A DNA stretch of 62,382 bases, the filler included, from Collodictyon triciliatum (Eukaryota): the NCBI GenBank assembly GCA_043381765.1. It is 4 parts of 4 records of this genome, joined end to end, with 100 filler letters (N's around TTAATTAATTAA, not from the genome) between each part and the next. Parts side by side here need not be neighbours in the genome. Positions count along the whole stretch, not along the records: positions 1 to 19,360 come from JBHJMP010000315.1; 3 more parts are not named here. The stretch is one strand, 5' to 3'. The notes beneath the pieces are model-generated. The model worked only from the letters and a program-made list of their open reading frames with translations. It was not told where the DNA came from and ran no database searches. Position numbers and translations under genes: made by a program. This document shows positions 1 to 48,503 of this stretch, piece by piece (the stretch's first letter is position 1; every line of letters begins with the position of its first letter).

Positions 1-813
1 CAACTACTCAGCGCAAAGGGTGTTCAAACCCGATCAGAATTGACTCAACCAAACGGGTCACGAATACCTTCCTTCAACCCAACCCGCGAGACTCGCAAAG
101 CGCCCCACTCATAAACGAACACTGTTCCATGAAAAGAAGCAAAGAAAAAAAGCAAAAAAAAAAAAAAAAAGAGCTGACTCGCGCACACTTCTCACAGGGC
201 GATTATTTCTGAGTTCAACCCGACAACAAACCCAATCATGAGCCTTTCAGCAATCTGTCATGGCCGCCTCGATCGACAGAAGAAGAGGAATGGAAAGAAA
301 GAAAAAGGACGTGTTTACAAAGGACATCAGAAGACACTGAACGAATCGTGATTGCGCAATCAAAAACGGCGATGTGTGAGACACTATTTTCCACATTTTC
401 CAACCGGACATCATCAATCCAGCCTTTGATCGCCAACGGATATCGGCATTCCTCAAAGTGGAACATCCAGAACAAGAAACATTGTTTTCATACCTATTCA
501 AGAAAATAAATGTGGAAATCATACATCTTTTATAATTCTTGGCGGCTGACTCCATAATCCGCGCAGGGAGTCTGCTCACAAAACTCGCACTGTTTGTCCA
601 GTTTCACCCGGCAGGGATCCACTACTGGTCTTTTTATCGCTTAACACTCACATTTTTTTTTTGCATCAGGGGCGAATCACTGTGCTCATTTGTTTCGCGT
701 TGGGTTGTCAAGAGGAAAATATTCATTTCTGACGCACAGATCAACACACAGAAGCACAGAGCCGTGAAGAAGGGAGGAGCAGAAGAAAGGAAAATAACGT
801 CAGCGCTTTGTTG

Positions 814-3800
814 ATGGAGGTGAGAAAGGTCAAAGTGCCTGTGTATTGGCAAGTTTGCTAGGTTTTCATATTCCCTGTTTTACTTTTTGTTTCCTTTTTG
901 TTTCCTTTTTGTTTACTTTTTGTTTACTTTCTGTTTACTTTTTGTTTACTTTTGTTTACTTTTTGTTTACTTTTTGTTTCCCTTTTGTTTCCCTTTTGTT
1001 TCCCTTTTGTTTCCTTTTTGTTTCCTTTTTGTTTACTTTTTGTTTACTTTTTGTTTCCTTTTTGTTTCCTTTTTGTTTCCTTTTTGTTTCCTTTTTGTTT
1101 CCTTTTTGTTTCCTTTTTGTTTACTTTTTGTTTACTTTTTGTTTTTTCCTGCGTGATGTATCGACTTTGACATCCACAAGGAGCAGACAAGGCCGTTTAG
1201 GAGGTCATATTTAGGCGATCGAACGAAAAATGCGTCCTACAAGTAAAGCTAAAATATCATTATCAAATATAACCTTAATCCAAAATAAATTCTAATATTA
1301 CGTCAATTTTTCTTCTTTTTGGTTTCGCTTGATTGACTATTTATCTCAACGATATATCAATTAATACTAGATATTGCTCCAACTACATTGCAACGTCAAA
1401 ATACAATATTATTAATTTTATACCAAAGAATTTGTTCGAGCAATTTCGCCGTGTTGCCAATGTTTATTTCTTGATCATATCTACGCTACAGGTTAGTTTT
1501 TCCCTTTAAATTGAGGCGTCGAAAGCCTCTTCTTACTAAACATTATTACAATAAATTAACATTTTTAAATGAAATGTGTGAATTGAATAAGAATACATAT
1601 TTCGCATAATCGTTGTGCTGATCGAAACTCCATAATGGCAACATAATTATGAGTTTTTGTTTAAACACCCCCTATAAATGAAACACTAACAAACAAAAAA
1701 AAATATCAATTGTTTATTAAAAAAAAAAATTAGCTTACAACAAATCTATCGCCAACAAACAAACTCGCTACTGCAATGCCACTTCTTTGCGTGCTGATGG
1801 CAAACATGGTAAAGGAGGCATATGAAGACTGGGTATGCTCCTTACATTCGCATGAATGCGGGCCTCTCAAAAAGAAGTAAATATTTCAAACCTATTGACA
1901 ACCCTCACCCTTTTTCATCACAAGAAACGACACGTCGCTGACAAAGAGGTCAACCACCGCAAATGCATCATTTTCAGGGACGGAATATTTAAGGAGATTC
2001 TCTGGAAAGAAGTTGTTGTGGGCGATATATGTGAACTACGCAATTTAGCAGAGGCTCCGGCAGATATGGCCATTCTAACGTCCTCAGAAAAGACTGGTAA
2101 CTTCTATGTGGAAACGTCGAATTTGGATGGGTTTGTGTCCCAATTTTTTTTCTTGCTTCAGCTGCAGTCTTTCTCTTCATATTCAGATGGGCTCTTAGAA
2201 TATACCGTTTCAACTCAGCATTGATGGATGTCTGTGTATAAATGTAGAGAAAGTAACTTGAAAGCCCAACAAGCTCTTCCAAAGTACTGCAACGTTTTTG
2301 TATCCCGCGAGAAACAAGATTTTGGAGGTATTTTGTTTCAGATTTTATTATAGCTTTAAAATTTTCGTGATTTAGTCAGTGAGACTGCGATTCTTATCAT
2401 AACTAACACTCTATTTTTATTTTATTTTTTTTACCCTCTGTTATCATCTCTCTTTTTCTATCCTTTTTTTTTATATACTTTTGTGTAGGATATATCGAAC
2501 ATGAACTTCCTAACAATCTTCTGTACGAATTCACTGGGACACTTCACAGGGATGGGAGCGACTGTAAATTTTTGAAGACACATATAATGCAGTTTTTTTT
2601 ATCTTCTTCAATTCTGAAACAGTATACACATAAATCCATTTTCTTTCTTTCCTTTTCATTGCCTTTTCACCTGGAATAATTGCGCTGTTTCAGTTTCTGT
2701 TACAGTAAAGAATCTAATTCTCCGTGGAATGGTTCTCCGCAACACTGAATATGTGTATGGTGTGGTGATATTTACTGGCCCTGATTCGAAGCTATCCATG
2801 AATTCGCAAGCTGCTCCCTCGAAACGAAGCAACTTGGAAAAGAATGTGAATGTATCCCTGGGATTTATCTTTTTCTGGTATGATACATATCGTGTAATCC
2901 TTCAATAGGGCGTCATTATATCATTCAGCATTCACAAAGCAATATTCATTATGTAACATCATCGATATAATCACTAGCCTTATACTGTTGTGCCTAATAT
3001 CCACGCTGGCTCACACCAAATGGGTTGAACAAAGAAGGTGAACTCAGATATGTAATATTCCGAGATTAGGAAAGCAATTGCATGATTCGACATAATTAAA
3101 GTATGGAACCTCTTATTTGAAGTAAAATCATTTATTATTTCTCATCTACCCAGGGGTTCATTATGGTATATGCTAAGTGTTGTTGAAGAGAGCAGCATCG
3201 AGTCAGCTTCCTCATTCGTCACTTTCTTGATTCTGTTCAACAATCTCGCTCCGATTTCGCTGTATATTTCGATGGAATTCGTTAGGTTTGAATGATGTCA
3301 ATTCTTTCTTTACTTTGATACACTGCGATGGCTTCTCTCTGCATAATTTTTCCCATTATTTGACTTTCTCGGCATGTAATAATTGCAAGATAAAAGGGTG
3401 TGGAAATTAATCAATCATTTGTTGATTATCGTTTTTACTTTACTCATCCGTAAAATAGGCTATACCAAGCTCGGCTAATAGAGTCTGATATTCAAATGTA
3501 TCACCCTGTGACAGATACTCCGGCTCTTGCGAGAACATCTAATCTGAATGAAGAACTTGGACAGATAGAGTACATATTCTCTGACAAGACTGGAACACTG
3601 ACATGTAATGAGATGGAGTTTAGAAAGTGTTCTATTGGTGGCTCCATCTATAGCCTTGGTGATTTCGAGCAGGTGGATTATTAGTCACTGTTTTTATCTC
3701 AGAAAAAGAAAAAGATGGAATGTAGTAAGACTTCCAAAGGTGAATAAACTCTAAGAAAAAAATCACCACATCATCACGCAGGTCATAAAACCAAGCATGT

Positions 3801-4148
3801 CTTACCATTCGATGCGCAGTTCGAGGATGGGAGAGTCAAGCTTTTCAGATGCAAGTGAACAACCACTTATGGATGCAATGGCTTTAATTACAAAAGAGCT
3901 TCATGAATTTTTCATGGTTTGTTTATTACTTTTTTTTCTCCAATAATGCAATCATTCAATCAGATTCTTTTCTCAAGGCTATAATTTTTAATGCTTCTGC
4001 ACACCGGCAATTACAGTGTCTCACAATTTGTCACACTGCTATTCCTGAGAAAGTGTCACCTAATAATCAAGTTGAGGAGGGCACGCCTAGCATCAAGTAT
4101 CAGTCCCAAAGCCCTGATGAGATTGCGCTCGTGACGTAAAACCTTTTC

Positions 4149-4189
<41 letters not shown>

Positions 4190-4212
4190 TTCCAATTTTT
4201 TCTTTCTTTTTT

Positions 4213-4252
<40 letters not shown>

Positions 4253-7200
4253 TATTGTATCATCAATCCAAGCATATACATACGCTATGGATATCTATCT
4301 GTAATTTTCCTATTAAATGTACCCACAGTGCTGCACACGAACTTGGATACACTGTTGTGGAACGTGACTCTGAATCACGTAAGTAATTGAGACTCTTTTT
4401 GTCTGGGATATGAATGGAACAAAATTGCTTGTAAAATGTCTTTTTTATGGTAAATTATATACTCCGAATATACCATTTCGTAGAATAAACTTGAAAGATT
4501 GATTTTCTGCTTAATTGTGTTGTTGTATTTGAGTTTATTGAATGTAATATGTAGTCGTCATTCGGTATCCAAGAGGTCAAGAAAGAGTGAAAATTCTCAA
4601 TGTGAACGAATTCAACAGCACAAGAAAGAGAATGTCTGTGATTTGTCGACGCGAGAATGGTCGAATACAGATATATTGCAAGGTTTTTTTTATAATTATT
4701 CTCTTTGATTATACTAAAACAGTTGTGTTTTGCATAAGAGACTTGGTGAACCTATTTTTTTTCTTTTTCTTTTTTTCCTATAGGGTGCTGATTCTGTGAT
4801 GTTTCAGAGAGTGTACAAAAACTCTGAATTTTATCTACAGACCAAAGCCCATGTTGACCGATTTGCGATCGAAGGACTTCGAACACTTGTGCTTGCAAAG
4901 GTCGGCACTATAAATATTGTGTACAGTGATGTTTCTTCCTGAAACAAGCAAAAAGAAAAAACTTAATAAAACGACATTGATAGAAAACTTTGGATACGGA
5001 GACATATGAACTCTGGAATCAAAAGTTTTTGCGGGCAGCCACTTCTCTTAGTGCCAGAGAAGCACAGTTGGATGAGGCAAGTCATAGAAACTCGCTCTAT
5101 TTATATCTGAATAAATGGGGGGAAAAATAACAAAGCTCGAACAATTTTACATCTAGGTTGCTGATATTATCGAAGTTAACCTTCACTTGCTCGGGGCTAC
5201 GGCGATTGAGGACAAACTGCAAGAGGGTGTCCCAGATTCTATAAAAATGCTATCCGATTCTGGTACCCTAGCCTCTTTTAGATATCAAATTACCTGGATG
5301 GTGCATATATTTGATATAAATTGAAAGATTGCCTAATCCGTTATATGTTGTATTTATGTAAGGAATCAAAGTTTGGGTTCTTACCGGTGACAAGCAGGAA
5401 ACAGCCATTAACATCGCTTATTCGACGAAGCTCTTCGACAAACAGATGGGGTTAATTGTATTAAACTATTCAGGAGAAGAGGATGTTATTCCTGGGTTAA
5501 CGCAAGCAAGACTTGAGGCTGAGCAGCTATTCGTTAGATTTTCTCCTGACTTGTTTTTTCTCTCTTTCTCCATATGCATGTTGAGAGAATCCACTGTAAT
5601 TTTCTATATCCTGAATTAGGTGGAAAATAAAAGGGCTGCGCTTGTTGTTGATGGGCGTTCTCTCGAATATATTATGGAGGACCGTGAAAAGCAGTTTTCG
5701 TTTTTGGAGGTCGCCAAGCTGTGTACATCAGTTGTGGCATGTAGAGTCAGGTTATAAAACTATGCGCTATATTCTTTTTTCTTTTGTATTGAAATCTTTA
5801 GGACTATCAAACCAATTTTAACGCAATATATTAGCCCAAGCCAGAAGGCTGGGATGGTGAGAATGGTGAAGAACCTTGTCAAACCTCAGGTGTGAATAGC
5901 CATCTGAAATTTATTTCGTTGTGGGTTGTGTCATATTTACTTTTGGTAATTAATTACTTGATAAACCGCTCAATCCAATCGTATGTGTACAGCCAATTAC
6001 GTTGGCCATCGGGGATGGAGCCAATGATGTGAGCATGATTCAAGAGGCACATGTTGGAATAGGTAACTAATACAATCAATACTGTCATCAGCAAGTGTTT
6101 ATGAGTGCGAGAAGAATTAAGAGAGTTTAAAATTCTGTCTATTGATGTGTTGCTTTTGATAACAGGTATTAGCGGAAAAGAGGGAATGCAAGCTGTACAG
6201 AGCAGCGATTATGCTATCGCACAATTTAGATTTTTGACTCGACTTCTTCTGGTAAGCAACTTCAAATATTGTGTTTAATGCCTAGCAAATCCCAGTATAA
6301 TAGATATGGATTATGTATTTTATATATATATATATATTTGACGTCATCCATTATCTAATAAATTTCATGTGCAATTGAATTAATTCCTCTCTTTGATTCG
6401 ACCATACTTGGACAGGTTCATGGGCGATGGGATTACATCCGAATGTCAAAGCTGATTTTATACTCTTTCTACAAAAATATGGCTTTCGTGTTGACTCTCT
6501 TTTACTTTGTGTTTTTGAATGGGTTCTCGGGCACCACTTTGTATGAGAGCTGGCTTGGTGCCGGGTGGAATGTAGGATGGACGCTGCTTCCAATTATGTT
6601 TGTTAGTGTACTAGATCAGGACGTCAGGTTTCATTTGCATTTGAAGTAGAACATGTGCAGACCATCTTTGTTATATGTGAAATAAAATTCCCATAGTTTT
6701 TTTAGCTGAGATTTATCTGTACTTCAGTTTTGTAACAACACCAAATGTTTAGTGCCGACTCAGCCCAGATTTATCCGATGTTGTATTATTACGGTCAAGC
6801 AAAAGTACTCCACCTGCATTTTCTTCTTTTTTGATCAAACACGAATAAATTATTAATCCTCGTATTTGTTTTTTTTTTGTTGTATTGTATTTGTCTTTGT
6901 ATTTGTCTTTGTCTTTGTCTTTGTCTTTGTCTTTGTCTTTGTCTTTGTCTTTGTCTTTGTCTTTGTCTTTGTCTTTGTCTTTGTCTTTGTCTTTGTCTTT
7001 GTCTTTGTCTTTGTCTTTGTCTTTGTCTTGTCCCTTGCTTTTGTCTTTTGTCTTGTCTTTGTCTTTGTCTTTGTCTTTGTCTTTGTCTTTGTCTTTGTCT
7101 TTGTCTTTGTCTTTGTCTTTGTCTTTGTCTTTGTCTTTGTCTTTGTTTTTGTTTTTGTTTTTTTGTTTTTTTTTTTTTGTTTTTGTTTTTTGTTTTTTGT

Positions 7201-10200
7201 TTTTTATTTTTTTCTGTTCAAAGATATCGTATTTTGACCTCTTTTTATTTTAATAAGCTCGGCTTCGACATTTGGACTTTCGTGCAATGGTCTGCAAACG
7301 CGTTCATCCATTCGCTGATAGTTTTCTTTTTCGGTATATCGTTCTTTGGGGTAACGAATTTGATTACAGCTTATTAAACTTGCTGGTATTGGCGATTCGA
7401 ATATATCTTCCCCGAGATAGTATTGCTCCCAAGCTATTTGATTCAGGAAACCTATATTGTTACATCAGGGAATCACGTCCTCTGATGGAAGAAGCGACGG
7501 ACTGTTCACAACCGGCACTATGATTAATTGCGCTTTGATGCTCACCGTTAATATGAAGGTAGAAATGAAGGGATCGATGAATCAAAAATGATTCGGCTTG
7601 AATTCCGAAATAGATTCTTCAATATTTCGACATTTCTGATAGGTATCCCTCGAAACGACGTATTGGACGCGAAACAACATGATTGTGGTCGTTGCTAGTG
7701 TCTCGCTTTGGTTCTTGTTTGTCATGGTATATTCTTTCATGGAAAGAATCAGTTCGGACTTTTTCTACGTCGGTTTCAGTGTATATTCCAAGTAAGGGCG
7801 TATACCAGTCACATGATCCAGTCAATACATTGAGGGTTTGACATGATTTTATCTCTTAATCTCTGTTGGTAATAGACCCGTTTTCTGGGTCACCTTACCT
7901 TTGACACCCATGACATGCTACTTATTCGACATCACATGGAAACTGTAAGCACCTTACCTGTATTGGAAAATAGAATAAAAATATTTTACATGATATCCTC
8001 TGTAACGTTTGTCAAAATAAAATTGTAGTGTTCGAAAAATTTACTTTCCCATGCCAGTCGATATTGCCTGTGAAATCCAGGGAGGATTTAAGTAAGAAAC
8101 GAATAAAATATGAGCTATGTCTCTGTAAGTTGTGATGTGGTGGTGTTTTAAGTTATTTTTAACACCCAATTTATTACCCAACAATATCTTTCTAACACCT
8201 TTTTCAGAAATGAGGTTGAGAATATGCTACCTGGCCTGCGTTCAAGCAAAGTTGCAGTCATAAACAGTCAAGAAGAACAATTCAGACTTCCTAGGCAGGC
8301 CTTTCATGGGATTTTCCAAACGTTTGGAGAGTAAGAAGATACATCTATAATGCGATATAGTATTTGCGATTTGTATTTTTTCTTTCTTTCCTCCTCATCA
8401 GGAGATTTTGGGGTGGATAAATGTACAATTAAAAACTATATATATCGAAGCATCCAAGCAATTTGAAACTTAACATTTTTTTTATTTATTAGAGATACAT
8501 CAAGGACTAAACAGGTTTGGATATAAGTTGTTTGTTTTTTCATCTGAAAACATAGAATTACAGCATACTAACAGGGCGGATGGTGTAGGGTAATCGGAAA
8601 TACAACAAATCCATCAGAACTCAGATGGATGCATACAACCTTGAATTTCAGAACGATGAGAGCTTGGAAAATCAATTCAGGGTAATTTTCCATGCCCAAA
8701 AAAATTGCGCTTTTATGTTTAAACTTGAACTAGAAACACCTGACAAGTTTAAGTAGACTTCCTTAGGAAACCTTTTAAAAAAACCAAGTTTTTAACTCTT
8801 TTTCACCTTTTTTTTGAATTCCTTTTTTCGTTACAATTTAATTAGTGTGTCTCAAAATCTCCATGTTGCACAAATTGAAATTAAATAAAAAAATTGTTTT
8901 TACGTATTGAGAAACATATTCGAAATATAATGTAGGATTACTATTTTATGGTTTCTGCTGGACAAACACGTGGCTCTATGGTGATGATTTTGGCCTTCTT
9001 CATTTTGTACTCTTTTGTATTCTCATCATTTGGATCCAAAGAGAATTCAGCTCCTGGATTCTTGGGAATCATTCTCTTGGTTGTGAGTGGTAAGTCTTCT
9101 ATAACCTGAGATAGCTTTTTCCAGATGCACTATTTGAATATTCATTGCATTATTTTAAAGTTACGTTCGTTCTGTTCTGCCTTACGCGGCATTTGAAACG
9201 AGTCTACCAACCGGCGTTGTTCTGCTGTCTATTTTGTGCCAGCATATTCAAAGTATACTAGAAAAATATGCACGTGTATCTTTACTGAATTACCAGTTAT
9301 CATAACATCATCAATTTCACATTAGACTGTTTCCATCACAGAGAGCGGAATCATATCAGCAACGAACTTTTCGATTATAGCTTTCATCGTGCTCAGATTG
9401 AGATTTAAATATGCTTTCATTATCGCACTTTTTGACCTTCTATTCTACCTGATATTTGTAGCGACGTAAGTTATTTTCCATTTGCTAATTTTAGCTTTGC
9501 TGTATACTAGACTTCCCCCTTACAGGATTGAATATTACAAAAAATGAATTATAGGTATGTGCAAGTTGGACTCTTAAAGGTTATCATATATGCGATTGTC
9601 CTCTTATGTATCTTTTGTTTGGGTGCTATCGGAGCTTATAAGAACGAAATTGGAATACGCAGAGATTTTCTCCTACAGAGAGAATTGAATTCAGAGAGGG
9701 AGCAAGTAAAGGTAGTTTGAATTAATGGAAGAGCATCCCGTTTTCTAGTTTCCAATTTCAAGAAAAGAAAAAATTCCTTTATTCGATTCAAAGTTCTAGG
9801 AATGAATATTATTGCTTGAGGACATGAAAAAAAAGGGATTTTGAGGTTTCTTTTTTTAAAATAAAAAACACAACTTAAAGGGTATTCTGGAGAATATGCT
9901 TCCTCCTTTTATCACAAAAAGGATGCAACTAGGCGAGAAGATTATTGCAAATAATGAGGTTGACTTTAGTTACTTGTAGTTTTTGGCTTGTATGATTATG
10001 TCATAATAATTATGAAAATTCATCCTAAAAAAATGTACTAGGAAAGAATGATGGTTTGTCCCTTAAAGTATTCATATATGTCTTGCTTAGGAGGAAGTTT
10101 CTGTACTCTTCTGCGATATCCAAGATTTTAATAAATTAGTCTTCGATCTACGACCAGGTGAGTTTGTCAGTCTTTTGGACAGAATATATTCCAGGTTCGA

Positions 10201-13200
10201 TAAACTAAGTGCAAGACACTCGGTTCGTAAAATGGAGACCGTTGGACCAACTTACATGGTAATGATAATATTATTTTGGTTTGGCTGTTTTAAAGAAGCG
10301 TCATAAGTAGATATCATTGTTTCTCGAGGTCTACATAAAAGATTGATGACGATGTAAACATAATAATAATAACAATAATAATTAATTAATTAATTAATTA
10401 ATTTATAGGCATGTGCGGGCCTTCAGGATTCCAATAAGAGCCATGCTCTTGCAGTGAGTCAGCTAGCATTTGATATGTTGGATGAAATCGCTAATTTTCA
10501 AACGTCAAAAGGAGAGCAGATTAAGTATGCTGAAATTTTCCATTTCTCTCTTTTTCTCTCTTTTTCTCTCTTTTTCTCTCTTTTTCTCTCTTTTTCTCTC
10601 TTTTTCTCTCTTTTTCTCTCTTTTTCTCTCTTTTTCTCTCTTNNNNNNNNNNNNNNNNNNNNNNNNNNNNNNNNNNNNNNNNNNNNNNNNNNNNNNNNNN
10701 NNNNNNNNNNNNNNNNNNNNNNNNNNNNNNNNNNNNNNNNNNTTTCTCTCTCTTTTCTCTCTCTTTTCTCTCTCTTTTCTCTCTCTTTTCTCTCTCTTTT
10801 CTCTCTCTTTTCTCTCTCTTTTCTCTCTCTTTTCTGTCTTTTTCTCTCTTTTTCTCTATTTTTCTATAAATTCATTCAATTTTATAAAGAGAACTGGCAA
10901 ATATTACATGGATGAACTCAACCAAGAAAAACTCAAATAGGATTCGTATCGGGATTAATACAGGTAGAGTAATATCGGGGGTGGTAGGATACAAGAAACC
11001 GCAATTCTGCCTTTTCGGAGACACTGTAATTCTTTCTAATCAAGATGAAAATTCATTACATTAACAAGCGAAACCTTTCTTTTCTGACATCCTTCAGCAT
11101 CTTTTTTTTATTATTGCTGTAACTTAATATTGTATTGTATGATTTTGGTTGATTGTTTCCCCCATTTCCCACAGGTTAACACAGCTTCTCGCATGCAATC
11201 TACTGGAATCATTTCGGAAGTACAGGTGTCTGAAGTGACTTACAATCACCTGAAAGGATTCTACGAAGGCGAATCTAGGAAAGTATGTCATTTTATTAAC
11301 ACCCAAGTATGGTCAGATTCCCCGTCGGTTGCTCATTAATAATCTAAAACGTAGGTGTATGTGAAAGGAAAAGGGGAAATGACAACATATATCATTCGAA
11401 GGAAATCCATCGGCCCTCGTTCTCTCACTATCATGAATAAGGCCGCTGCTGCCACCGTACATGTAACTTACTTTTCTCTTTCAGTTCCAGTGAAATTCAG
11501 CTTGCAAGCATCTAAAGCGTTTGTATTAGGGAGAGGAGAAAGTCGATGAAGAAGTGCATGATTCAGATACCGGTGTAATGACACATGAATTTTGCATATG
11601 TCACGAAATAGCGTGTTCCAAAAAAAAAAATACGGAAACAGCGTTTATAATTCATGACTGTCAACACCCATAGATTTTTGATCTGATTCCCCGCATCTCA
11701 AAGGAGCGTGAAGAGGTTCCGATGAATTTAGTCACTCTCCGCTTTACTGAAGACGACGAGCTGGAAGAACAGTACCAGCAAGAAGCATCTGCTATCAATG
11801 CTCGTCAGATAAGAATGTGCTTCAAGATGTTTGCGTTCGGGTAATTTGTTGGTCACTTGAAAAAGAAAAGAGTCAATTTAATTATAGAGTATATGTTATT
11901 ACCTGAACGATATATGACATGCTCTGAAAACGATTTGTAGATTTCTTGGTTCTGCCATGTTGGAAGTCGTGACAGGTGACCCAAGCGATGGAAATGTCAT
12001 CGTTGGGATGTCAGTTCGTTTAGGATTCATGTGTATGCATTAGATATCCAAATTTTGAAAGAACAGAAGAAAATGTATACCGCTTGCGCTAATCCCAGTA
12101 TCTAAATTACCTTTATATATACAATTTTATAGGCTTCCTTGCTGCTCTTTATCGTTCTGTCCATACTCAATGGTTCCAATCAAATCCACAAATGTATGCT
12201 TTCGTGGTGTATGTTTTGGAGGGTCTTGTGATTTGTTTGGTTGGTGTAGCAAAGGTTATTTATACACTTACAATCGATTGACATTTATTCATAATTTTAT
12301 TTTTTCTTCTTTTTTCTTCTTTTTTCTTCTTTTTTCTTCTTTTTTCTTCTTTTTTCTTCTTTTTTCTTCTTTTTTCTTCTTTTTTCTTCTTTTTTCTTCT
12401 TTTTTCTTCTTTTTTCTTCATTTTGACTGCCTTTTGAAAGAAAAATATATCAACAAAATAGGGAGATGCGATAGGGGAAATGACCACTTTGAGCATAATT
12501 ATGTCTCTGTACGTTGTATTTAACGTGGGAGGTGTCTCGTTTATATATGCTCTGATATCATGCTCCATCATGATATTGACATTCACCCTAATCGGCACGG
12601 GAATGGATTCCAGTCCGACTCAACCCCAAACATCTGATAATCCATTTGGGTTCTATGTTCTTTTTGTTACTTTGGCTTTAATTGTGGATGCTTCGTCTAC
12701 TAGAACGAAAGTACCATTTTCACTCATTGCGTAGCTTTTTTTCATTTTTTTTTTCATTCTCCTATTCATTAAAAAAAAATACATTCGATATTTCTAGGAG
12801 TATTACATGCGCCGCAACTTTGCGCTTACATCTTCAATCAAAGCTGAAACCAAAAAGTCTGACGATCTTCTTCATAACATGCTTCCTTCCTCTGTCATTA
12901 ATCAATTAAAGGTATGCTATTATTTTAACTAGACAATCATTAAAATATGATGATTGACATGGGAATTTTTTATGGATCGTACTTTATGCTTTAAAAGGAA
13001 CGTATTAATATCTTTGTGTTTTCATCAAGTCTGGAAGAAGCACAATTGCCGATATTCACGAGAATGTAGCAATCTTATTTTCTGACATTGTTGGTTTTAC
13101 TGACAAGGCCTCCAGAAGTGACCCAGCGAAGGTTAAAAAATTAAAATCACTCTTATAATCTAGCTCACCACAATTATGCATTTTGTATATTTAGATAAGA

Positions 13201-14466
13201 ACTTTTCAGTCTCATATTCATATTTTAAAATTTTATCATATACGTTACAGGTTGTTGAGCTCCTTTCCTCCATGTTTGGCATATTCGATAGCCTTACCGA
13301 GAAGCACGGAGTCTACAAAGTTGAGACGTATGTGTTTCCCTTGTCATTTTATGTAAATCATGAAAATTACAGATAATTGTATGCTCCTTGATTTTGAATC
13401 GTCTGGTAGATTTTTTTATGCATATCACTTTCTCATTTCATAAACACTCCTCTTTTATGATTCGTGCATGCATCAGAATCGGCGATGCATATGTCGTGGT
13501 TGCTGGACTTCCGACGATTACCAACAAGCTCGCCCCAGAAATAGAAAAAAGAACACCTGCTGAACGGATGATATTATTTGCCAAGGACATGCAAAATGCA
13601 GTAATATTTTTGTTTTTTATTTTTGCATCTTCAATCTCTGTGGAAAGAAAAATATCCTAATACTTCAGACCGTCGCATGGAAATTTCAACAAATAGTCAT
13701 TAATAATGGTATGCCTTTGTATTGTGTACGTTCAAGCATTTTCTCATTTTTGAATTGCAATTATAGCTTCGCGATATTCGCACTTATGACGGCGAAGAAG
13801 TGAGGATTCGTATTGGAATCCACCACGGCCGCCTTTTGGCTGGTACTTTATTAAATTCATGTCGAAACAGTGTTCCCGAGAACACCCAGAAAGAAAAGAA
13901 AAAAGAAGCTCTAGTGTAGTGTACAGAGAAATTAAAAAAAAATCTTTGATTTTTTGTTTCATTGATTCTATATCCATCTACATATATTCTATCCTGGCGC
14001 GAAGGTGTTATCGGGCGCACTATTTTGCGGTATGACATTTGGGGAAGTGACGTTTTGATTGCTGCATCTATGGAGTCGCGGTCAGTCGCAGGTATTCTCA
14101 AAAATGGATTCTCTTCTCGATCGATGCTATATTTATAATCAGAAGTTACAGATATACACGATTTATATTTATTATTTTAATATAGACAGATATTGGTTAG
14201 GCACATTCTGCATCATTCAATTATTGTTGCTTTTTTTTTATTCTTCCTTTCAATTTTGTCCAGGATGGTGGAGATGCTGGCTTTATTCAATTATTGTTGC
14301 TTATTTATTAAACTTTTTCCATCTGTGCGAACTTGAACTTATCCCAGGTCGAATCCATGTTACGTACGAATTCAAGAAGCAAATAGAAGGTCATTACGAA
14401 TTCGAAGATCGGGGAGAGTCAGAGTTTTCGAATGGGCGCAAAACAAAAACCTACTTTGTCAATTGA
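814..14466 (+). CDS. P4-type ATPase (phospholipid flippase) fused to a pseudo-heterodimeric membrane guanylyl cyclase; about 55 exons
   Basis: Spliced exons give [79 protein letters not shown] (D at 3583), [45 protein letters not shown] and YSFYKN. These are followed by hydrophobic TM exons, cyclase domain 1 ([38 protein letters not shown]), a second TM block and cyclase domain 2 ([32 protein letters not shown]-stop at 14466). The ATG at 814 is inferred from a 6-nt first coding exon. Confidence 0.93.
880..1148 (+). repeat. 11-mer minisatellite (TTTTTGTTTCC/TTTTTGTTTAC)n, intronic
   Basis: Direct read. Confidence 0.9.
6889..7146 (+). repeat. (TTTGTC)n microsatellite, intronic
   Basis: Direct read. 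Confidence 0.95.
10543..10857 (+). repeat. (TTTTTCTCTC)n / (TTTTCTCTCTC)n repeats flanking an N gap, intronic
   Basis: Direct read. Confidence 0.9.
12300..12419 (+). repeat. (TTTTTCTTCT)n, intronic
   Basis: Direct read. Confidence 0.9.
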
Positions 14467-14689: not shown

Positions 14690-14960
14690 TTCTTATGGCG
14701 CAGATAAACTTATTTTTTCTTTAATTTTTTCCTTTGGTTTTCTACTCTCACTAAAAAAAATATATATAGGAGAAACTTCATCAGCCAGTTATGGATTATT
14801 ATTTTTTTTTTTGAGTCTCGTTCCATCATATTTATGTACTAAAAGGGGTTACCATCTTTCGATTGGTAAACCTGGCGCACTAGTATCCAAGGTCTAATCA
14901 CATTTTTCACTGCGGTTGTGTAGTGGCGAAGGCTGCCAGGAAAGACCCGATATCCTGTTT
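14690..14960 (-). ncRNA. Candidate Fanzor omegaRNA scaffold
   Basis: Lies directly 3' of the Fanzor frame. The minus strand has GGTCT...AGACC pairing enclosing a CACT/AGTG stem, then TACTA..GGTTTACCAATC-GAAA-GATGGTAACC..TAGTA, a hairpin with a GAAA loop at 14857-14860. Confidence 0.5.
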
Positions 14961-16839
14961 TTTAGAGGAAGACGTATGCATATTTTGAATTGAAAGAACT
15001 TTCTTGAGTATTTTTTAGCGCTGTTAAAGTCCCTTGTCAAGAATACAGTTTCTTTGCTTTCTGAGCGATTGCATTCCTTACATATGAGACATCTATACAC
15101 CTTTTTTATATTTCTTTTCAGTGTCATGTATTCCAGTTCTTTTTCGCAGTTCCAACACATTTGGATGTTCTAAATTCATTTACACTAACGATTTCAAAAC
15201 GTTTGGATGGTATTTTTCGTAATTCTCTTCCGATTGCTGCCATAAAATGTTTCATCGAAGATTTTCTGCTCCAGTTTTCATACACCAGTACAACATCCTT
15301 GCCAAATGTCTTTTCGATTCTGTCCATTAACAATGGTTCACTTCATTTTGCATTAACATACTGTCTCCATCTCATCTTTCGAAAAGGTACGTGTTCATAA
15401 AATCTGGATAATTCTATCTGGCATCTTGATTTCATAGATACATATTCTCGAAATTGTTCATAATCGACCGTGCACGAATTGTGTTTACTCAGTTATGTCT
15501 AAATCGATTAAAGATACTCTTGATGTCTCAAACTGCTGATTCTCTTCAAAAGTAATAGGACCAAAAGAAACAGCACTTTGTATATCTGTTGCCATGTATA
15601 TCCCTGGAGAATTGTACTTTATTTTTTTCTCGCACAAGAGTATTTTGTGATTTTTAGTGATTTTTGCTATCATGTCTTCTTTGGTGTGCCGTGTAATCTA
15701 ATTTCTTACCTGTCTCATCCACCATGTAAACCAAATTAAACTTGCCAACATTCTCTCAAACTACAATTTTTTTTGTCGCTGATAAAGATAGCTGCTCTTT
15801 GGAAAGTTCATCTATATAAACATATTCTTGGGTCTTTTGACTATGTTTGAGATTTTGAATTTGAAATACCTTTCTTTTCAAACAATAATGACACCGCCAA
15901 GCCGTCTGTTTGTATTGTGTATTTAAAAATTGTAATCTCTCTGATGAAAGACCCTCTTCTTCATTCCAAAGAAGTTATCCTACAATTTCTCTTTGTATTC
16001 TGATATATTCTTCATTAATAATTTTTCCAGATTATATCAATAGATCTATCAAACATGCAGTATTTAGGGAAATATGACATGGTATATTGTTAGTTCTTAT
16101 AGAGATTGGTTGAAACTGTTTGGTTCCGATGTCCTCAAAAATGCGATTCATGTAAATCAGACAAGGAGTGTACTTATTTGGATTGACTTTGGCGTCATAT
16201 TCGATATCATTTACAATATCGCTGGGAATGATATGATGCAAATGCGTTATAGCCCATACTTTGTATTTTCAGGTGTTTTGATTTTCTTTGAGATGGATTT
16301 TTTTAACTTTCGAAACTCTGCCTTTTTAATAGCATCCGCAATATATTATTTTTAGCTGCTGTTTGGTTTATAAAGCACAGTAACCTCTTTACAAAATGCT
16401 CCTTGATGTTATAACGATAAGCTGTTAACATTTGCTTCGTCAAGTACAGTAATAGATGAGACAGTCCAATCAATGAAAAGCGTTCTTCTCAGGACAAAAG
16501 GACTCGAAAATCATAGATAAAACGTAATCATGTCTTTACTCATATCTGGATGTTTTAAACTTGGGTGTCTATCTTGTGAAACTACTCCGACAGTCTTTAA
16601 AACTTACAAAAAAGAACATTTTCATCGATTGTTGGGACTAGTTGTTTTGATTTCAATATGTAACATGCTGCAAACAGATAAGTGTCGGTAACCAAATTAT
16701 GACACAATAAAACCATATCGTTGGTTTTGTCATAGTCATTCGCATTCTTTACAATCGACTTTAGAGATGCTTTCGCATTTGGATAGTCTGGTTTTACCGA
16801 CTTTAGATTCACAAGCTCTAGGCGTTTTCTTTTATTCAT
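14950..16839 (-). pseudogene. Fanzor1 (eukaryotic TnpB-family RNA-guided endonuclease), decayed
   Basis: Intronless minus-strand fragments occur in order: KASLKSIV..CHNLVTDTYLF, NIKEHFVKRL, FQPISIRTNNIPCHISLNT, FKYTIQTDGLAVSLLF, YIDELS..KIVV*ENVGKFNLVYMVD..YTAHQRR, LVYENWS..VNEFRTSK, CWNC..CKEC zinc finger, TRDFNSA. There are multiple stops and frameshifts. Confidence 0.85.
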
Positions 16840-19360: not shown

Positions 19361-19460
19361 NNNNNNNNNNNNNNNNNNNNNNNNNNNNNNNNNNNNNNNN
19401 NNNNTTAATTAATTAANNNNNNNNNNNNNNNNNNNNNNNNNNNNNNNNNNNNNNNNNNNN
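19361..19460. other. Assembly gap with artificial TTAATTAATTAA linker
   Basis: 100-nt block of N with a central all-frame-stop 12-mer. Confidence 0.9.
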
Positions 19461-20286: not shown

Positions 20287-23200
20287 TTATGTTGACGTGC
20301 GGGTGCCGTGGGTGAGTTCATCCCAGTTGAATGTATGGCGAACAAGGCTTTCCACAGGGATACCACATATCGGCCTCTGCAGCTGAACGAACTTGTGGAT
20401 GGCTGCGCCCAGTTTTGGCTGGGAATATGACAGATAGCTGATTGAGCGCGAGGGTGATTTCATTTGCTTTGATACTCTCTCTCTCTCTCTCTCTTTTTTT
20501 TTTTTTTCAAGGCAGAGGAAACCCACCTCGTCTGAAAGGACCAGTGCACCGAGTACTTTGTAGGTACTGAAATCGTCACCACAGTCCAATATGATAAGGC
20601 GAATATACCCGGATATCTAATAAAAAAAGTTTGTATGTTTTCAAGAGCTTTGCCGTATTTATCGCTAGAATTAAAATGGTATTCTGATTCCGCAGCGTCA
20701 CAGTCGAAAATCTATTTCCCGCTCGTTTTTCTTTCTTCTTTTGTTAATGTCTATTAGGTGGCTTCTTTGATTATCTGCATACTTTTTCACAAGCCAGGTC
20801 ATCTTCTTCTGAAATAAAATCACATTAACAAAAATTTTCTAATGTTGGTTGTATATTGGTGCTGAAAAGGATATCAATATGTTTGGTGTGAGAAGCTAAC
20901 CAGTGAAGTACTCATCTAGAGGAATAGGAGATATTGCTACTCTTGTTAATGGGAATCGCGCAGAGACAGCTCGAACATTTTTGGATATTTCGTGAATTTT
21001 CTATGAGTAGAAAACAAATGATTGGAGTAAAAATATATATATTGACATCTAATGCAGAACGTTCACCGCCTTTTTAGCCAACCAATTTAACTTAATTTAC
21101 TGGTAAGAAAAAAAAACTGACGTCGTTCATATCCGACAGACCGGTGGTGGTGACATGAAATCCAAAACATCGATAGCTCTGATAAAAGATGGCGTGTTCC
21201 TGTGCATATTCGTACGGAATCAAATTTCGTCCAAGGAAGATATAGTTTTACCAATACAATATAATACAATATAATACAATATAATACAATATAATACAAT
21301 ATAATACAATATAATACAATATAATACAATATAATACAATATAATACAATATAATACAATATAATNNNNNNNNNNNNNNNNNNNNNNNNNNNNNNNNNNN
21401 NNNNNNNNNNNNNNNNNNNNNNNNNNNNNNNNNNNNNNNNNNNNNNNNNNNNNNNNNNNNNNNNNACAATACAATACAATACAATACAATACAATACAAT
21501 ACAATACAATACAATACAATACAATACAATACAATACAATACAATACAATACAATACAATAAAAGGAAATGGCCGATAACAGGAAGATTAAAAATTGTGA
21601 ATTGGCAAAAGACTCATAAAACACACTTACTGGTATGTATGGCTTTTCTGCATTAAAAAAAAAAGAAGATACAAAGTACACAAAATTAGACTACGCTTTC
21701 CAATTTTTTGTTGACATATTTAAGGAGCTTGGTTCAATTAAAATGCGATAAAAAATACCTGTTAACATCGCTATAGCACATGCTTTCCCTTGCTCAGCAG
21801 CAGAGTTCCAGTTTTTGTTAATTGAAGTTCTAAGGTGTTGAAGTTGGGAGATGTGGTCAGAGAAGTGATTTTTTTTTAATAGAGTTCATATCCATTCGAG
21901 ACATTAGCTTCTTGAGGAAACTTAAAGTCGTCTCTTTTGTTGGCTTTCAGAGAGGTATTAAATGGAGGCAAGGTGAACCTATCTAAGAATAAATACCTCT
22001 CTTTCAACCCTAATGATACTTTCAATGGATCTGTACATAAAAACAAATGAGCAACAACAATCTCTCTTTGGTAGAAACTTGAACAATATAAAAATTATTG
22101 CATTAAATAAATATACCTTGAATTTCAGCGCAATCACCGACAGCATATATGTTTGGTGCTGAAGTCTATTTTGAATACGTCATGGTGAATTCCATTAAGA
22201 TGTCTTGGATTTTTTTTTCGATACTATATGTTTCTTACCTCGAACCTGTTGTCCACCAATATTCCTCTTGCTGTAGCTATGTTTGACGCTCTGGCCAGGT
22301 CAGCCTGTTAAAGGTTTTGATAAATTAACCTCAGTTTACCACAGCTAGCATATAATCTGATATATATTTAAAGGAACTTACATCGCTTTCTACACCAGTG
22401 GCAAGGATAATAGCATCACAAATTACTCTGCTCTTCTTGTTTGTAGCGATACCTGTTACTTGAGGCGCACCCGATCTCGTGACGAAAATGTGCTTGATTG
22501 CATCCTCTGGTAGTAATTGTACGTTTTTGCATACGTTAAGACATTTTGTGACCATGGAAGAGCTCAATTTGTCAAGAATAGGTGCCCCGAGTTCTTTTCG
22601 TCGAAACAATACTGTGATAAGAGGAGTTTCGTGCGAGGCTTGGGCTGATTGAAGAATCTTTCCCTCGAATAATGAGTTGAGGATGTCCAAACACAAGGTT
22701 CCACCGCCAACAATGACGACACGCCTCCCACTCAACAGCAATTGATGTAGGAGAATAGACTCTTCAGGATTTCGAATCGGAAAAATACCCAAAGGCCATA
22801 TCCCTATGTATCAAAAGTTATAACAGCCACAGAGACAAGGGCCAGGACAAGGACATAGACAAGGGAAAGGACAAGGACAAGGACATAGACAAGGGAAAGG
22901 ACAAGGACAAGGACAAGGACAAGTATAACCTCAAATCCTGAATTTTTCAAATAGCAGGCAACCTTTGTGACAGAAGGCTTCCTCAGACATATGAAGACCA
23001 CTAAGTTGTTCCTCAAGCGGTATGTGAAGCAAGTTTGAAACGAATGGGCTAAGTTTTTGAGCTTTTTCGAAATTCTAATTAAAATTATGGCATATAAGAT
23101 AATACGAATGATATTGGATGTTTTTTTTTATTATAATAATTATTAATTTGCCCTTGCACATATGACTAGCATATTAATAATGTGAAATAACAGATTAAAT

Positions 23201-25132: not shown

Positions 25133-25232
25133 NNNNNNNNNNNNNNNNNNNNNNNNNNNNNNNNNNNNNNNNNNNNTTAATTAATTAANNNNNNNNNNNN
25201 NNNNNNNNNNNNNNNNNNNNNNNNNNNNNNNN
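25133..25232. other. Assembly gap with artificial TTAATTAATTAA linker
   Basis: Same layout as 19361-19460. Confidence 0.9.

Positions 25233-32698: not shown

Positions 32699-37315
<4,617 letters not shown>

Positions 37316-38195: not shown

Positions 38196-48503
<10,308 letters not shown>

What the first reader, a model, noticed from the sequence alone, without database searches (positions are those of the whole stretch)
814..14466. Flippase-guanylyl cyclase chimera in a protist of unknown lineage
Seen: a single splice-compatible reading path runs from a complete P4-ATPase through TM-cyclase-TM-cyclase, with no terminal exon found between the halves. Known: this chimera is described from alveolates (Paramecium and Tetrahymena GCs, Plasmodium GCalpha/beta, Toxoplasma GC) and oomycetes. 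Inference: the standard code excludes Paramecium- and Tetrahymena-type ciliates. About 55 short exons with microsatellite-laden introns are atypical of oomycetes. The fusion may therefore be in a lineage where it is unreported. The protein is compact, without the long low-complexity inserts of the apicomplexan proteins, which would make it a tractable structural model.
Basis: partly seen in the sequence, partly recalled or inferred. Interest (0 to 1): 0.8.

Follow-up and report, generated by a model that had tools for sequence, protein, structure and literature searches.

The report
Flippase–guanylyl cyclase fusion gene, host unidentified
The window holds one intact, very intron-rich gene that fuses a lipid flippase to a cGMP-making cyclase, a known kind of protein, but this copy belongs to a branch of the family so far seen only in unnamed transcriptomes and its host organism could not be named.

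Summary
A 55-exon, GT/GC-AG, stop-free reading path runs from 814 to 14466 (+) and encodes 1994 aa: a complete P4-ATPase, a conserved 67-aa linker, then 6TM-cyclase-6TM-cyclase.

The ATPase-cyclase junction lies on one gap-free contig. Ten related proteins used as guides all give the same co-linear chain, and transcript-derived ORFs from relatives cross the junction.

All flippase motifs are canonical. The cyclase halves complement each other in the inverted arrangement, with a Glu/Cys pair that predicts GTP use.

This is a member of the known P4GC family. Its compactness is normal for non-apicomplexan members.

In trees it sits with unnamed transcriptome proteins in a fully supported clade. 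That clade lies outside the sampled alveolates and is not sister to oomycetes.

The host stayed unidentified. It uses the standard code, is AT-rich and very intron-rich, and has pyrimidine-repeat introns and an axonemal-protein gene. The genome style resembles the published Physarum draft, but other tests speak against Physarum itself.

The claim of an unreported lineage is plausible but unproven. A public haptophyte protein already shows the fusion outside the reported lineages.

The parts
814..14466 (+). Whole gene model: 55 exons, 1994 codons plus a TGA stop.

Exons: 814-819, 1181-1242, 1371-1491, 1734-1832, 1925-2130, 2248-2327, 2489-2557, 2694-2877, 2978-3037, 3154-3285, 3459-3672, 3782-3916, 4017-4135, 4329-4378, 4555-4682, 4784-4900, 4984-5076, 5157-5262, 5363-5532, 5620-5750, 5835-5889, 5993-6062, 6166-6251, 6416-6627, 6753-6804, 7258-7350, 7469-7558, 7643-7791, 7876-7944, 8029-8091, 8247-8330, 8493-8514, 8589-8681, 8936-9089, 9161-9252, 9326-9465, 9555-9711, 9881-9958, 10091-10258, 10409-10524, 10941-11025, 11175-11282, 11355-11456, 11539-11574, 11674-11840, 11941-12032, 12133-12254, 12462-12710, 12798-12911, 13030-13131, 13251-13327, 13477-13600, 13767-13842, 14005-14091, 14348-14466.
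   Evidence: Spliced alignments to 10 guide proteins; model statistics and exon list. Exon GC is 0.43 against intron GC 0.29.
814..8091 (+). P4-ATPase (flippase) module, residues 1-1074. Motifs: DGES 2123-2254 (split by an intron), PISLY 3251-3265, DKTGTLT 3583-3603 (phosphorylated Asp = D382), KGAD 4680-4792, TGDKQET 5383-5403, GDGANDV 6011-6031.
   Evidence: Pfam hits; motif blocks aligned with relatives and ordinary P4-ATPases; coordinates; 651 of 978 aligned residues identical to P0003.
8247..8681 (+). Linker exons (8247-8330, 8493-8514, 8589-8681), residues 1075-1140 (the linker count below also includes residue 1141, the first residue of exon 8936-9089). They end in the conserved pre-membrane motif [13 protein letters not shown] (8640-8678). 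The boundaries of the first two exons are uncertain.
   Evidence: 34 of 67 residues identical to P0003, 21-24 of 62-67 to four other clade members, and an aligned LEF.ND..LE.QF block. tblastn of P0003 residues 1045-1074 onto 8592-8681 gives 57% identity.
8936..9958 (+). First six-helix hydrophobic bundle (residues about 1155-1291, 8978-9621) and the helix leading into C1.
   Evidence: Hydropathy scan: 6 segments in 1155-1291; coordinates.
10091..11456 (+). Cyclase domain C1. It carries Glu1396 (METVGPTYM, 10232-10258; no second metal Asp) and Cys1465, Asn1472 and Arg1476 ([14 protein letters not shown], 11005-11195).
   Evidence: Guanylate_cyc Pfam hits at 1.5e-14, 4.2e-13 and 3.9e-6; motif alignment.
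10643..10742 (.). 100-N assembly gap inside intron 40, flanked by (TTTCTCTCTT)n repeats. No exon is lost: P0003 residues 1375 and 1376 are joined across it.
11539..12710 (+). Loop between the cyclase domains, with a second [13 protein letters not shown] motif (11737-11775), followed by the second six-helix bundle (residues about 1600-1759, 11815-12701). The loop exons between 11460 and 12130 differ between guide proteins.
12798..14466 (+). Helix before C2 (weak HNOBA-like hit at 12798-12929) and cyclase domain C2. C2 carries both metal-binding Asp residues: D1819 in FSDIVGFT (13078-13101) and D1863 in VETIGDAYV (13320-13495). It lacks the catalytic Asn and Arg ([15 protein letters not shown], 14031-14075). 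Stop codon TGA at 14464-14466.
879..1144 (+). Intron 1 microsatellite (TTTCCTTTTTG)x24. Similar pyrimidine-rich arrays lie in intron 13 (4150-4251, poly-T), intron 25 (6885-7213), intron 39 (10379-10403), intron 40 (10543-10865) and intron 47 (12295-12424).
   Evidence: Tandem Repeats Finder.

Best explanation
The region 814-14466 (+) is one intact gene for a 1994-aa P4-ATPase-guanylyl cyclase chimera (P4GC).

Shown here:
- A complete type-P4 ATPase with every catalytic motif is joined, through a short conserved linker, to a 6TM-C1-6TM-C2 class III cyclase in a single open, splice-compatible frame.
- The two cyclase domains are complementary. C2 supplies the two metal-binding Asp residues. C1 supplies the Glu/Cys purine-specifying pair and the catalytic Asn and Arg. 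Together they can build one active site.

Inferred from what is known of class III cyclases and of the apicomplexan and ciliate proteins:
- The enzyme makes cGMP.
- The flippase half is a working lipid pump or lipid sensor on which cyclase output depends.
- The protein sits in a membrane at the head of a cGMP pathway. A class I cyclic-nucleotide phosphodiesterase gene lies 21 kb downstream.

Evolutionary placement: the gene belongs to a distinct, well-supported P4GC clade known only from unnamed transcriptome ORFs. That clade lies in the non-alveolate half of the family, together with oomycete and haptophyte proteins.

Host: unidentified. It is AT-rich, extremely intron-rich, uses the standard code, and can probably build a flagellum.
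For: Domain order and significance.

Single open frame: 10 of 10 guide proteins give stop-free, in-frame chains with the same core exons.

Splice sites and composition: 54 of 54 AG acceptors, 52 GT plus 2 GC donors, an AG|GTAAGT-like donor consensus, and exon GC 0.43 against intron GC 0.29.

Not an assembly artefact: the junction 8091-8936 lies on the gap-free stretch 1-10642.

Fusion in relatives: P0003 is named by its source as a Trinity/TransDecoder ORF. It matches both the ATPase exon (86%) and the cyclase exon (88%) and is co-linear from 1988 to 14460. 5 of the 11 hits to the ATPase exon carry both PF16212 and PF00211. Pfam confirms ATPase-then-two-cyclase order in 6 of 6 relatives tested.

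Linker: conserved.

Motifs.

Trees: WIN groups with P0003, P0001 and P0002 (99-100*) and with P0016 and P0017 (100*) in the cyclase, ATPase and full-length trees.

Function of the family: PMC6592433 (abstract and passages seen) and PMC13466520 (abstract and sections 2.1, 2.3, 3.4 read).
Against: - There is no RNA from this organism, so a single mRNA is inferred, not shown.
- The linker exons 8247-8330 and 8493-8514 are short and weakly conserved. Guides pick variants (8153, 8208 or 8247 as start; 8493-8514 against 8515-8584), so part of the path there could be wrong.
- Exon 1 contributes only 2 codons in my preferred model, and the true start may differ.
- Substrate specificity and flippase activity are read from residues only. 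The mapping of those residues rests on recalled structural work on mammalian cyclases.
- The A-domain motif is DGES rather than DGET, although P0003, Saprolegnia diclina and Diacronema show the same.
Confidence: 0.85

Rival explanations
1. Two neighbouring genes: a stand-alone P4-ATPase ending near 8100-8330, and a 12-TM cyclase starting near 8590-8940, transcribed separately.
For: The linker is the least conserved part, and its small exons differ between guides. Met codons exist in exon 8936-9089 (translation). No RNA data are available.
Against: - The space between the last ATPase exon and the first clearly conserved cyclase-side exon (8589-8681) is under 500 nt.
- Every guide gives an in-frame, stop-free join (10 of 10).
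- The pre-membrane motif is conserved with relatives in which it sits inside one ORF.
- Transcript-derived ORFs of relatives cross the junction.
Confidence: 0.06
2. The host is after all an alveolate, an oomycete or a bicosoecid. The gene would then be an ordinary member of a reported lineage, and only its clade is unsampled.
For: Holding the window clade together with the alveolates is not rejected (p-AU 0.139), so a deep-branching alveolate is possible. No labelled bicosoecid sequences were in my set. PMC13466520 stresses how few stramenopile sequences exist (section 3.4).
Against: - The sampled ciliate-type and myzozoan-type rows (19) form a 100* clade without it.
- An exclusive grouping with the oomycete rows is rejected at p-AU 0.026. 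The groups were named after a first tree had been seen.
- 54 introns and 34% GC are unlike the relatives found on short metagenome contigs that hold the whole ORF, for example 2333 aa on 15.5 kb.
Confidence: 0.35
3. The host is Physarum polycephalum or another myxogastrid (Amoebozoa), which would place the fusion outside SAR.
For: The Physarum genome paper (passages seen) describes:
- long mononucleotide or pyrimidine-rich repeats within introns;
- a mean intron size of 100 bases and more than 9 introns per transcribed gene;
- gaps caused by low-complexity introns, three scaffolding steps, and a scaffold N50 of 54-66 kb;
- cyclases carrying 'calcium export' domains.

The window shows poly-T and pyrimidine repeats in introns, a median intron of 117.5 nt, three gap styles (spacer), a length of 62 kb, and a flagellar-protein gene.
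Against: - No identical or near-identical protein appeared in three searches, although that species' transcript set is in the database (P0120).
- 0 of 54 introns have a [G/A]TATC[C/T] donor, against 8,087 of 175,198 (4.6%) with the strict motif and 20,899 putative U12-type introns in Physarum (Larue et al. preprint, sections read). At 4.6%, the chance of 0 in 54 is about 0.08.
- 'Calcium export' may mean another domain, and the supplementary figure could not be read.
- The ATPase half does not group with the ordinary P4-ATPases of Physarum or Polysphondylium.
Confidence: 0.2
4. A decaying pseudogene or an assembly chimera.
For: A draft scaffold with 12 N runs. An odd relic of the N-terminal motif lies in intron 2.
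Against: - 1994 codons without a stop or frameshift.
- All catalytic motifs are intact.
- Exon and intron composition contrast.
- The only gap inside the gene lies in an intron and loses no exon.
- The junction of the two halves is on one contig.
Confidence: 0.03

Closest known systems
Unnamed transcriptome ORFs P0003, P0001, P0002 (and P0016, P0017, P0018) from the EukProt source
   Same: Same architecture and length class (1941-2063 aa for the full-length ones). 67% identity to P0003 over 1760 columns. Same motifs, including the Glu/Cys pair and a conserved linker. 100* clade in all three trees.
   Different: Different genes or species: no hit above 88% even in the best exon. Their organisms are not named in the records I could see.
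Oomycete P4GC (Saprolegnia diclina SDRG_02580 = P0049; S. parasitica P0048 and P0014; Phytophthora boehmeriae P0012)
   Same: Non-alveolate half of the family. Intact flippase motifs including DGES. About 2100 aa. 56-60% identity in the C1 exon.
   Different: Ser in place of Cys at the C1 specificity position. Exclusive sisterhood with the window clade is rejected at p-AU 0.026. 374 of 999 identical residues in the ATPase half.
Ciliate guanylyl cyclases (Blepharisma stoltei P0026, P0030, P0042; Paramecium and Tetrahymena GCs as cited in PMC6592433 and PMC13466520)
   Same: Same topology, same inverted C1/C2 complementarity, about 2100 aa.
   Different: They lie in a separate 100* alveolate clade. 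Ser at the specificity position in Blepharisma. Paramecium and Tetrahymena use another genetic code (recalled).
Apicomplexan GCs (Toxoplasma TgATPaseP-GC of 477 kDa; Plasmodium GC-alpha and GC-beta)
   Same: Same family and domain order. They are the only members with functional data: essential for cGMP-dependent motility, egress and invasion (PMC6592433 abstract).
   Different: About twice as long, with large disordered inserts and partly degenerate flippase motifs (PMC13466520, passages). No apicomplexan sequence was in my trees, because the search band was 1067-3397 aa and none appeared among the 120 proteins listed. Vitrella and Karlodinium stood in for myzozoans.
Diacronema lutheri KFE25_001123 (P0054), a haptophyte protein
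   Same: P4-ATPase N- and C-terminal domains plus two cyclase stretches in one 3120-aa protein. Cys at the specificity position, as in the window. Non-alveolate half of the trees.
   Different: Long branch, GC-rich amino-acid make-up, and much longer. It is not mentioned in the 2026 survey (0 occurrences).
Mammalian-type 12-TM adenylyl cyclases and the heterodimeric soluble guanylyl cyclase
   Same: 6TM-C1-6TM-C2 topology and a single pseudo-heterodimeric active site. The Glu/Cys pair matches that of animal guanylyl cyclases (recalled).
   Different: No flippase. The roles of C1 and C2 are swapped relative to mammalian adenylyl cyclases (read against recalled residue assignments).

Membership tests
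P4GC (P4-ATPase-guanylate cyclase chimera, as defined in PMC13466520 section 2.1) | A type-P4 ATPase module with the P4-specific N- and C-terminal domains | tested here: met
   PhoLip_ATPase_N at 1.4e-22 and PhoLip_ATPase_C at 2e-29, both above the curated cut-offs.
P4GC | P-type and P4 catalytic motifs (DKTGT, DGET-like, PISL, TGD..ET, GDGxND) | tested here: met
   All present and aligned with ordinary flippases. DGES stands for DGET, as in P0003, Saprolegnia diclina and Diacronema.
P4GC | Two class III cyclase domains, each preceded by a six-helix membrane bundle | tested here: met
   Guanylate_cyc in 3 + 4 pieces. Hydropathy scan: 6 segments in residues 1155-1291 and 6 in 1600-1759. This was a simple window method, not a dedicated predictor.
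P4GC | Both modules within a single polypeptide: one splice-compatible open frame with a coding linker | tested here: met
   10 of 10 guides give stop-free chains. The linker is 34/67 identical to P0003. The junction lies on one contig.
P4GC | A single mRNA and protein in this organism | not testable with these tools
   No RNA data for the source. Only transcript-derived ORFs of relatives are available.
P4GC | Complementary cyclase halves, swapped relative to mammalian adenylyl cyclases | tested here: met
   C2 has both Asp residues. C1 has Glu, Cys, Asn and Arg and lacks the second Asp. The residue roles are recalled from the literature on class III cyclases.
P4GC | Guanylyl (not adenylyl) cyclase activity | not testable with these tools
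   Predicted from the Glu1396/Cys1465 pair only.
P4GC | Groups with other chimeras in trees of both halves | tested here: met
   Cyclase tree. Full-length tree. In the ATPase tree, the chimeras other than P0055, together with the ordinary Pythium P4-ATPase, lie on one side of a 98* split from six of the seven outgroup flippases, but deep order is unresolved.
P4GC | Partner proteins (CDC50-type subunit and others described in apicomplexans) | not tested
   None is encoded in this window as far as the Pfam scans show. The rest of the genome is not available.
Alveolate P4GC subgroup | Placement inside the ciliate + myzozoan clade | tested here: not met
   19 alveolate-type rows form a 100* clade without the window clade. 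A sister position is not rejected (p-AU 0.139).
Oomycete P4GC subgroup | Placement with the oomycete rows; intron-poor gene | tested here: not met
   p-AU 0.026 against an exclusive clade. 54 introns.
Mammalian-type transmembrane adenylyl cyclase | Lys/Asp purine-specifying pair; no N-terminal pump | tested here: not met
   Glu/Cys at those positions, and a flippase in front.

The most novel reading that the evidence does not exclude
The host lies outside SAR altogether. The most concrete candidate is a myxogastrid amoebozoan, given the Physarum-like genome style. The window's clade would then be a second, non-SAR reservoir of flippase-cyclase chimeras, alongside the haptophyte protein. That would mean the fusion is either much older than the stramenopile-alveolate ancestor proposed in 2026, or has moved between supergroups.
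Probability: 0.3. Interest if true: 0.65.

Novelty: new member of a known kind. Interest (0 to 1): 0.42.

Why it matters
The chimera is the entry point of cGMP signalling in malaria parasites, Toxoplasma and ciliates. How the flippase half controls the cyclase is still open.

This copy is full-length, short, free of low-complexity inserts, and keeps every catalytic motif of both halves. The same is true of its transcriptome relatives and of the oomycete and Blepharisma proteins, so it is one of several reasonable candidates for structural or biochemical work, not a unique one.

The evolutionary point matters more. The only survey in print that I found limits the fusion to alveolates, oomycetes and bicosoecids. 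My searches show a well-supported extra clade (this gene plus six unnamed transcriptome ORFs) and a haptophyte protein outside that range. Naming the host would therefore bear directly on whether the fusion arose once in a stramenopile-alveolate ancestor.

Tried and rejected
Host identification, all without result:
- No rRNA or other Rfam family and no tRNA in the window.
- The cluster look-up for the unnamed relatives was switched off.
- ESM Atlas: no usable hit for P0003, and only bacterial oxidoreductase clusters for a neighbouring ORF.
- PDB comparisons of neighbouring exons named the genes but not the organism.
- The scan of the prokaryote genome collection found 34 loci. The 13 that match the window protein at E<=1e-5 reach a mean identity of at most 49% and do not extend past residue 1058, i.e. 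not into the cyclase half. None of the 34 has a telling title.
- A literature search for the scaffold spacer TTAATTAATTAA gave 80 papers, none about an assembly of this kind among the 25 listed. The one I opened uses a different, longer separator.

U12 test:
- The window-wide count of RTATCYTT is 21 against 16.8 +/- 4.2 in shuffles.
- I reject this as a test, because the published Physarum density would add only about 3 sites in 62 kb.

TnpB/Fanzor:
- This was my first impression of the minus-strand ORFs at 14897-15697. It got no Pfam support even at E<=1, so it rests on recalled motifs only.

Alternative 5' end:
- The frame open from 1333 to 1506 matches PhoLip_ATPase_N from its first position.
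- It is closed upstream by TGA at 1330-1332 and has no AG acceptor.
- P0016 and P0018 support exon 1181-1242 joined to 1371.

Other points:
- The supplementary figure of the Physarum paper that shows the cyclase architectures could not be read.
- Table S1 of PMC13466520 was not looked at.
- The representative-protein search, structure prediction and complex prediction were not used.

Full report
**What is there**

The window is an AT-rich eukaryotic scaffold. GC is 0.25-0.39 in 2-kb steps, and there are 12 runs of N.

I scanned 146 of the 157 plus-strand stop-to-stop pieces between 700 and 14700 against Pfam. 18 had a hit at E<=0.01, and 16 of those are P4-ATPase or class III cyclase families in strict co-linear order:
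- PhoLip_ATPase_N (1333-1506, 1.4e-22)
- E1-E2 ATPase, Cation_ATPase and Hydrolase_3
- PhoLip_ATPase_C in five pieces from 6105 to 7945 (best 2e-29)
- Guanylate_cyc in three pieces (10091-11336) and again in four pieces (13009-14135)

**Gene model**

The longest conserved exons found relatives that carry both halves:
- The ATPase exon 6362-6646 hit 11 proteins, and 5 of them have both PF16212 and PF00211.
- The cyclase exon 10091-10303 hit 6 proteins.
- P0003, which its source names as a Trinity/TransDecoder ORF of 1941 aa, matches both exons at 86% and 88%. By tblastn it is co-linear with the window from 1988 to 14460.

I wrote a protein-to-genome aligner with GT/GC..AG introns in all three phases:
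- Guided by P0003, it returns 51 exons and 5628 nt with no stop.
- Nine other guides, including the full-length P0016, P0017 and P0018 and a Saprolegnia protein, also each return stop-free, in-frame chains with the same core exons.
- P0016 and P0018 support a 5' exon of about 1181-1242 joined to 1371-1491. An in-phase ATG at 814 followed by GTGAGA fits as the start.

The final model has these properties:
- 55 exons, 1994 aa
- 52 GT and 2 GC donors, and 54 AG acceptors
- median exon 102 nt and median intron 117.5 nt
- exon GC 0.43 against intron GC 0.29
- a TGA stop at 14464-14466

None of TAA, TAG or TGA occurs in frame, while there are 73 CAA/CAG codons. This supports a standard code.

Uncertain points are exon 1 (814-819 or 814-852), the exon 2 acceptor, the small exons between 8100 and 8600, and those between 11460 and 12130.

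**One gene or two**

Several lines point to one gene:
- The junction (8091-8936) lies on the gap-free stretch 1-10642, so it is not a scaffolding artefact.
- The only gap inside the gene (10643-10742) sits in a repeat-filled intron and loses no exon.
- The linker is short (residues 1075-1141). It is 34/67 identical to P0003 and 21-24 of 62-67 to four other clade members. It ends in a conserved LEF.ND..LE.QF block that runs into the first membrane bundle. A similar block precedes the second bundle.
- Six of six relatives tested have the same domain order in one ORF.

No RNA of this organism was available, so a single mRNA remains an inference. I give two separate genes about 6%.

**How it probably works**

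The flippase half keeps DGES, PISLY, DKTGTLT, KGAD, TGDKQET and GDGANDV, aligned with ordinary flippases.

In the cyclase half:
- C2 has both metal-binding Asp residues ([17 protein letters not shown]) but lacks the catalytic Asn and Arg.
- C1 lacks the second Asp (VGPTYM) but carries Glu1396, Cys1465, Asn1472 and Arg1476.

Read against the recalled residue assignments for class III cyclases, this gives one composite active site with a guanine-specifying Glu/Cys pair. The roles of C1 and C2 are swapped relative to mammalian adenylyl cyclases. This arrangement is ascribed to the ciliate and Plasmodium enzymes (Linder et al. 1999, cited in a passage of PMC6592433; the detail is recalled).

The window clade and the haptophyte protein have Cys at the specificity position. 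The Saprolegnia and Blepharisma rows have Ser, and the Vitrella and Karlodinium rows have Ala.

A hydropathy scan finds six segments before each cyclase domain.

These points are inferences from the apicomplexan work (PMC6592433 abstract; start of the abstract of PMC9426505 in the listing):
- that the pump half is needed for cyclase output;
- that it works with a CDC50-type subunit;
- that the product feeds a cGMP kinase.

**Place in the family**

A search with P0003 over its full length scored 8000 candidates and listed 120. By my count, 43 of the 120 carry a cyclase domain as well as flippase domains. Eight of those are named:
- Blepharisma stoltei (three)
- Vitrella brassicaformis
- Saprolegnia parasitica
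- Saprolegnia diclina
- a Karlodinium transcript
- Diacronema lutheri

I aligned the model protein with 41 fused or cyclase proteins and 7 ordinary flippases out of the 132 proteins held. I left out P0018 and six close relatives of rows already included.

Results of the three trees:
- Cyclase tree (42 rows, 898 columns), ATPase tree (47 rows, 978 columns) and full-length tree (35 rows, 1899 columns): the window protein always sits with P0003, P0001 and P0002 (99-100*) and then with P0016 and P0017 (100*).
- For the full-length tree I dropped seven partial or long-branch rows and the outgroups.
- In the full-length tree, the 13 rows around Blepharisma and the 6 around Vitrella and Karlodinium form a 100* clade.
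- The other 16 rows hold the window clade, an unnamed clade, Diacronema with P0024, and the oomycetes with two unnamed rows.

AU tests:
- Forcing the window clade together with the alveolates is not rejected (p-AU 0.139).
- Forcing it into an exclusive clade with the oomycete rows gives p-AU 0.026.

Caveats: the trees used a quick search and LG+G4, several rows have deviant composition, and I named the groups after seeing a first tree.

**What is in print**

My searches found one survey, PMC13466520. I read its abstract and sections 2.1, 2.3 and 3.4, plus passages.
- It reports 177 P4GC genes in 132 species, in all alveolates, in oomycetes and in three of four bicosoecids.
- It does not mention haptophytes, Diacronema, Amoebozoa or transcriptomes (0 occurrences each).

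The Diacronema protein, with both flippase end domains and two cyclase stretches, already lies outside that range.

**The host**

I could not name it. The failed routes are listed under Tried and rejected.

What can be said:
- It uses the standard code.
- The gene has about nine introns per kb of coding sequence.
- Its larger introns are poly-T or pyrimidine-rich repeats on the sense strand.
- A neighbouring gene resembles the axonemal inner proteins EFCAB6 and CFAP115, so a flagellum or cilium is likely.

The genome style matches the description of the Physarum polycephalum draft (PMC4758236 passages; PMC2258281 passages):
- pyrimidine or mononucleotide repeats inside introns
- a mean intron of 100 bases
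- gaps at such repeats
- several scaffolding steps
- a scaffold N50 near the window's length

Evidence against that species itself:
- No near-identical protein came up, although its transcript set is in the database.
- 0 of 54 introns have a U12-type donor, against 4.6% with the strict motif there.
- The flippase half does not group with the ordinary P4-ATPases of Physarum or Polysphondylium.

My estimates are about 0.2 for a myxogastrid host, about 0.3 for any host outside SAR, and about 0.35 for a host inside a lineage already reported.

**Verdict**

This is a real, intact member of a known protein family, in a clade of that family that has no named member. Its lineage claim is open, and its case for special tractability is weak.

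Noticed in passing
window 35104-37277 (+): A class I cyclic-nucleotide phosphodiesterase gene (PDEase_I in four ORF pieces, best 3e-23). Its nearest solved relatives are PDE9A and PDE4. It lies about 21 kb downstream of the cyclase on the same strand, so a cGMP source and a possible sink share one 62-kb stretch.
   Followed up: partly
window about 40193-47222 (-): A multi-exon EF-hand gene. Its best solved relatives are the axonemal microtubule inner proteins EFCAB6 (3.5e-18) and CFAP115 (1.9e-16), which suggests the host builds a cilium or flagellum.
   Followed up: partly
window 19361-19460, 25133-25232, 49828-49927: Three 100-base gaps written as 44 N + TTAATTAATTAA + 44 N, a spacer with a stop in all six frames. 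The window also has plain 100-N gaps and one 377-N gap, so three gap styles in all. This points to several scaffolding steps. All three spacer gaps abut homopolymer or purine/pyrimidine repeats.
   Followed up: partly
window 1333-1370 (intron 2 of the model): The 3' end of intron 2 reads in frame with exon 3 as a second copy of the flippase N-terminal motif ([12 protein letters not shown]). Pfam aligns from there, and it mimics the motif encoded by exon 2 ([15 protein letters not shown]). It is closed by TGA at 1330-1332 and has no AG acceptor. It may be a relic or an alternative 5' piece.
   Followed up: partly
window 14897-15697 (-): Broken ORFs just downstream of the gene carry EFRTSK.C and paired CxxC motifs that reminded me of TnpB/Fanzor-type nucleases. 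Pfam gave no support even at E<=1, so this is an unverified impression.
   Followed up: partly
whole window and repeats at 879-12424: Simple repeats are pyrimidine-rich on the sense strand of the plus-strand genes (AT skew -0.04 to -0.29 over 1-16 kb and -0.13 to -0.28 over 32-38 kb). Skew is positive over 42-46 kb, inside the minus-strand EF-hand gene, and the repeats beside the gaps at 19460 and 49828 are purine-rich on the plus strand. This is a strand asymmetry that follows transcription direction.
   Followed up: no
P0054 (Diacronema lutheri) and P0024: A named haptophyte protein of 3120 aa has the full flippase-plus-two-cyclase architecture. It lies outside the distribution stated in the 2026 survey, which does not mention it.
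   Followed up: partly
P0055 (unnamed transcriptome ORF): A fused protein on a very long branch in the cyclase tree. Its flippase half falls among the ordinary P4-ATPases rather than with the other chimeras, so it may be an independent fusion.
   Followed up: no
window 51527-53165 (-) and 22334-22810 (-): A ubiquitin C-terminal hydrolase gene (UCH, 1.6e-9) and an exon of a pyridine-nucleotide oxidoreductase (weak Pfam hit, Atlas score 0.96 to that family). Both are ordinary neighbours.
   Followed up: no
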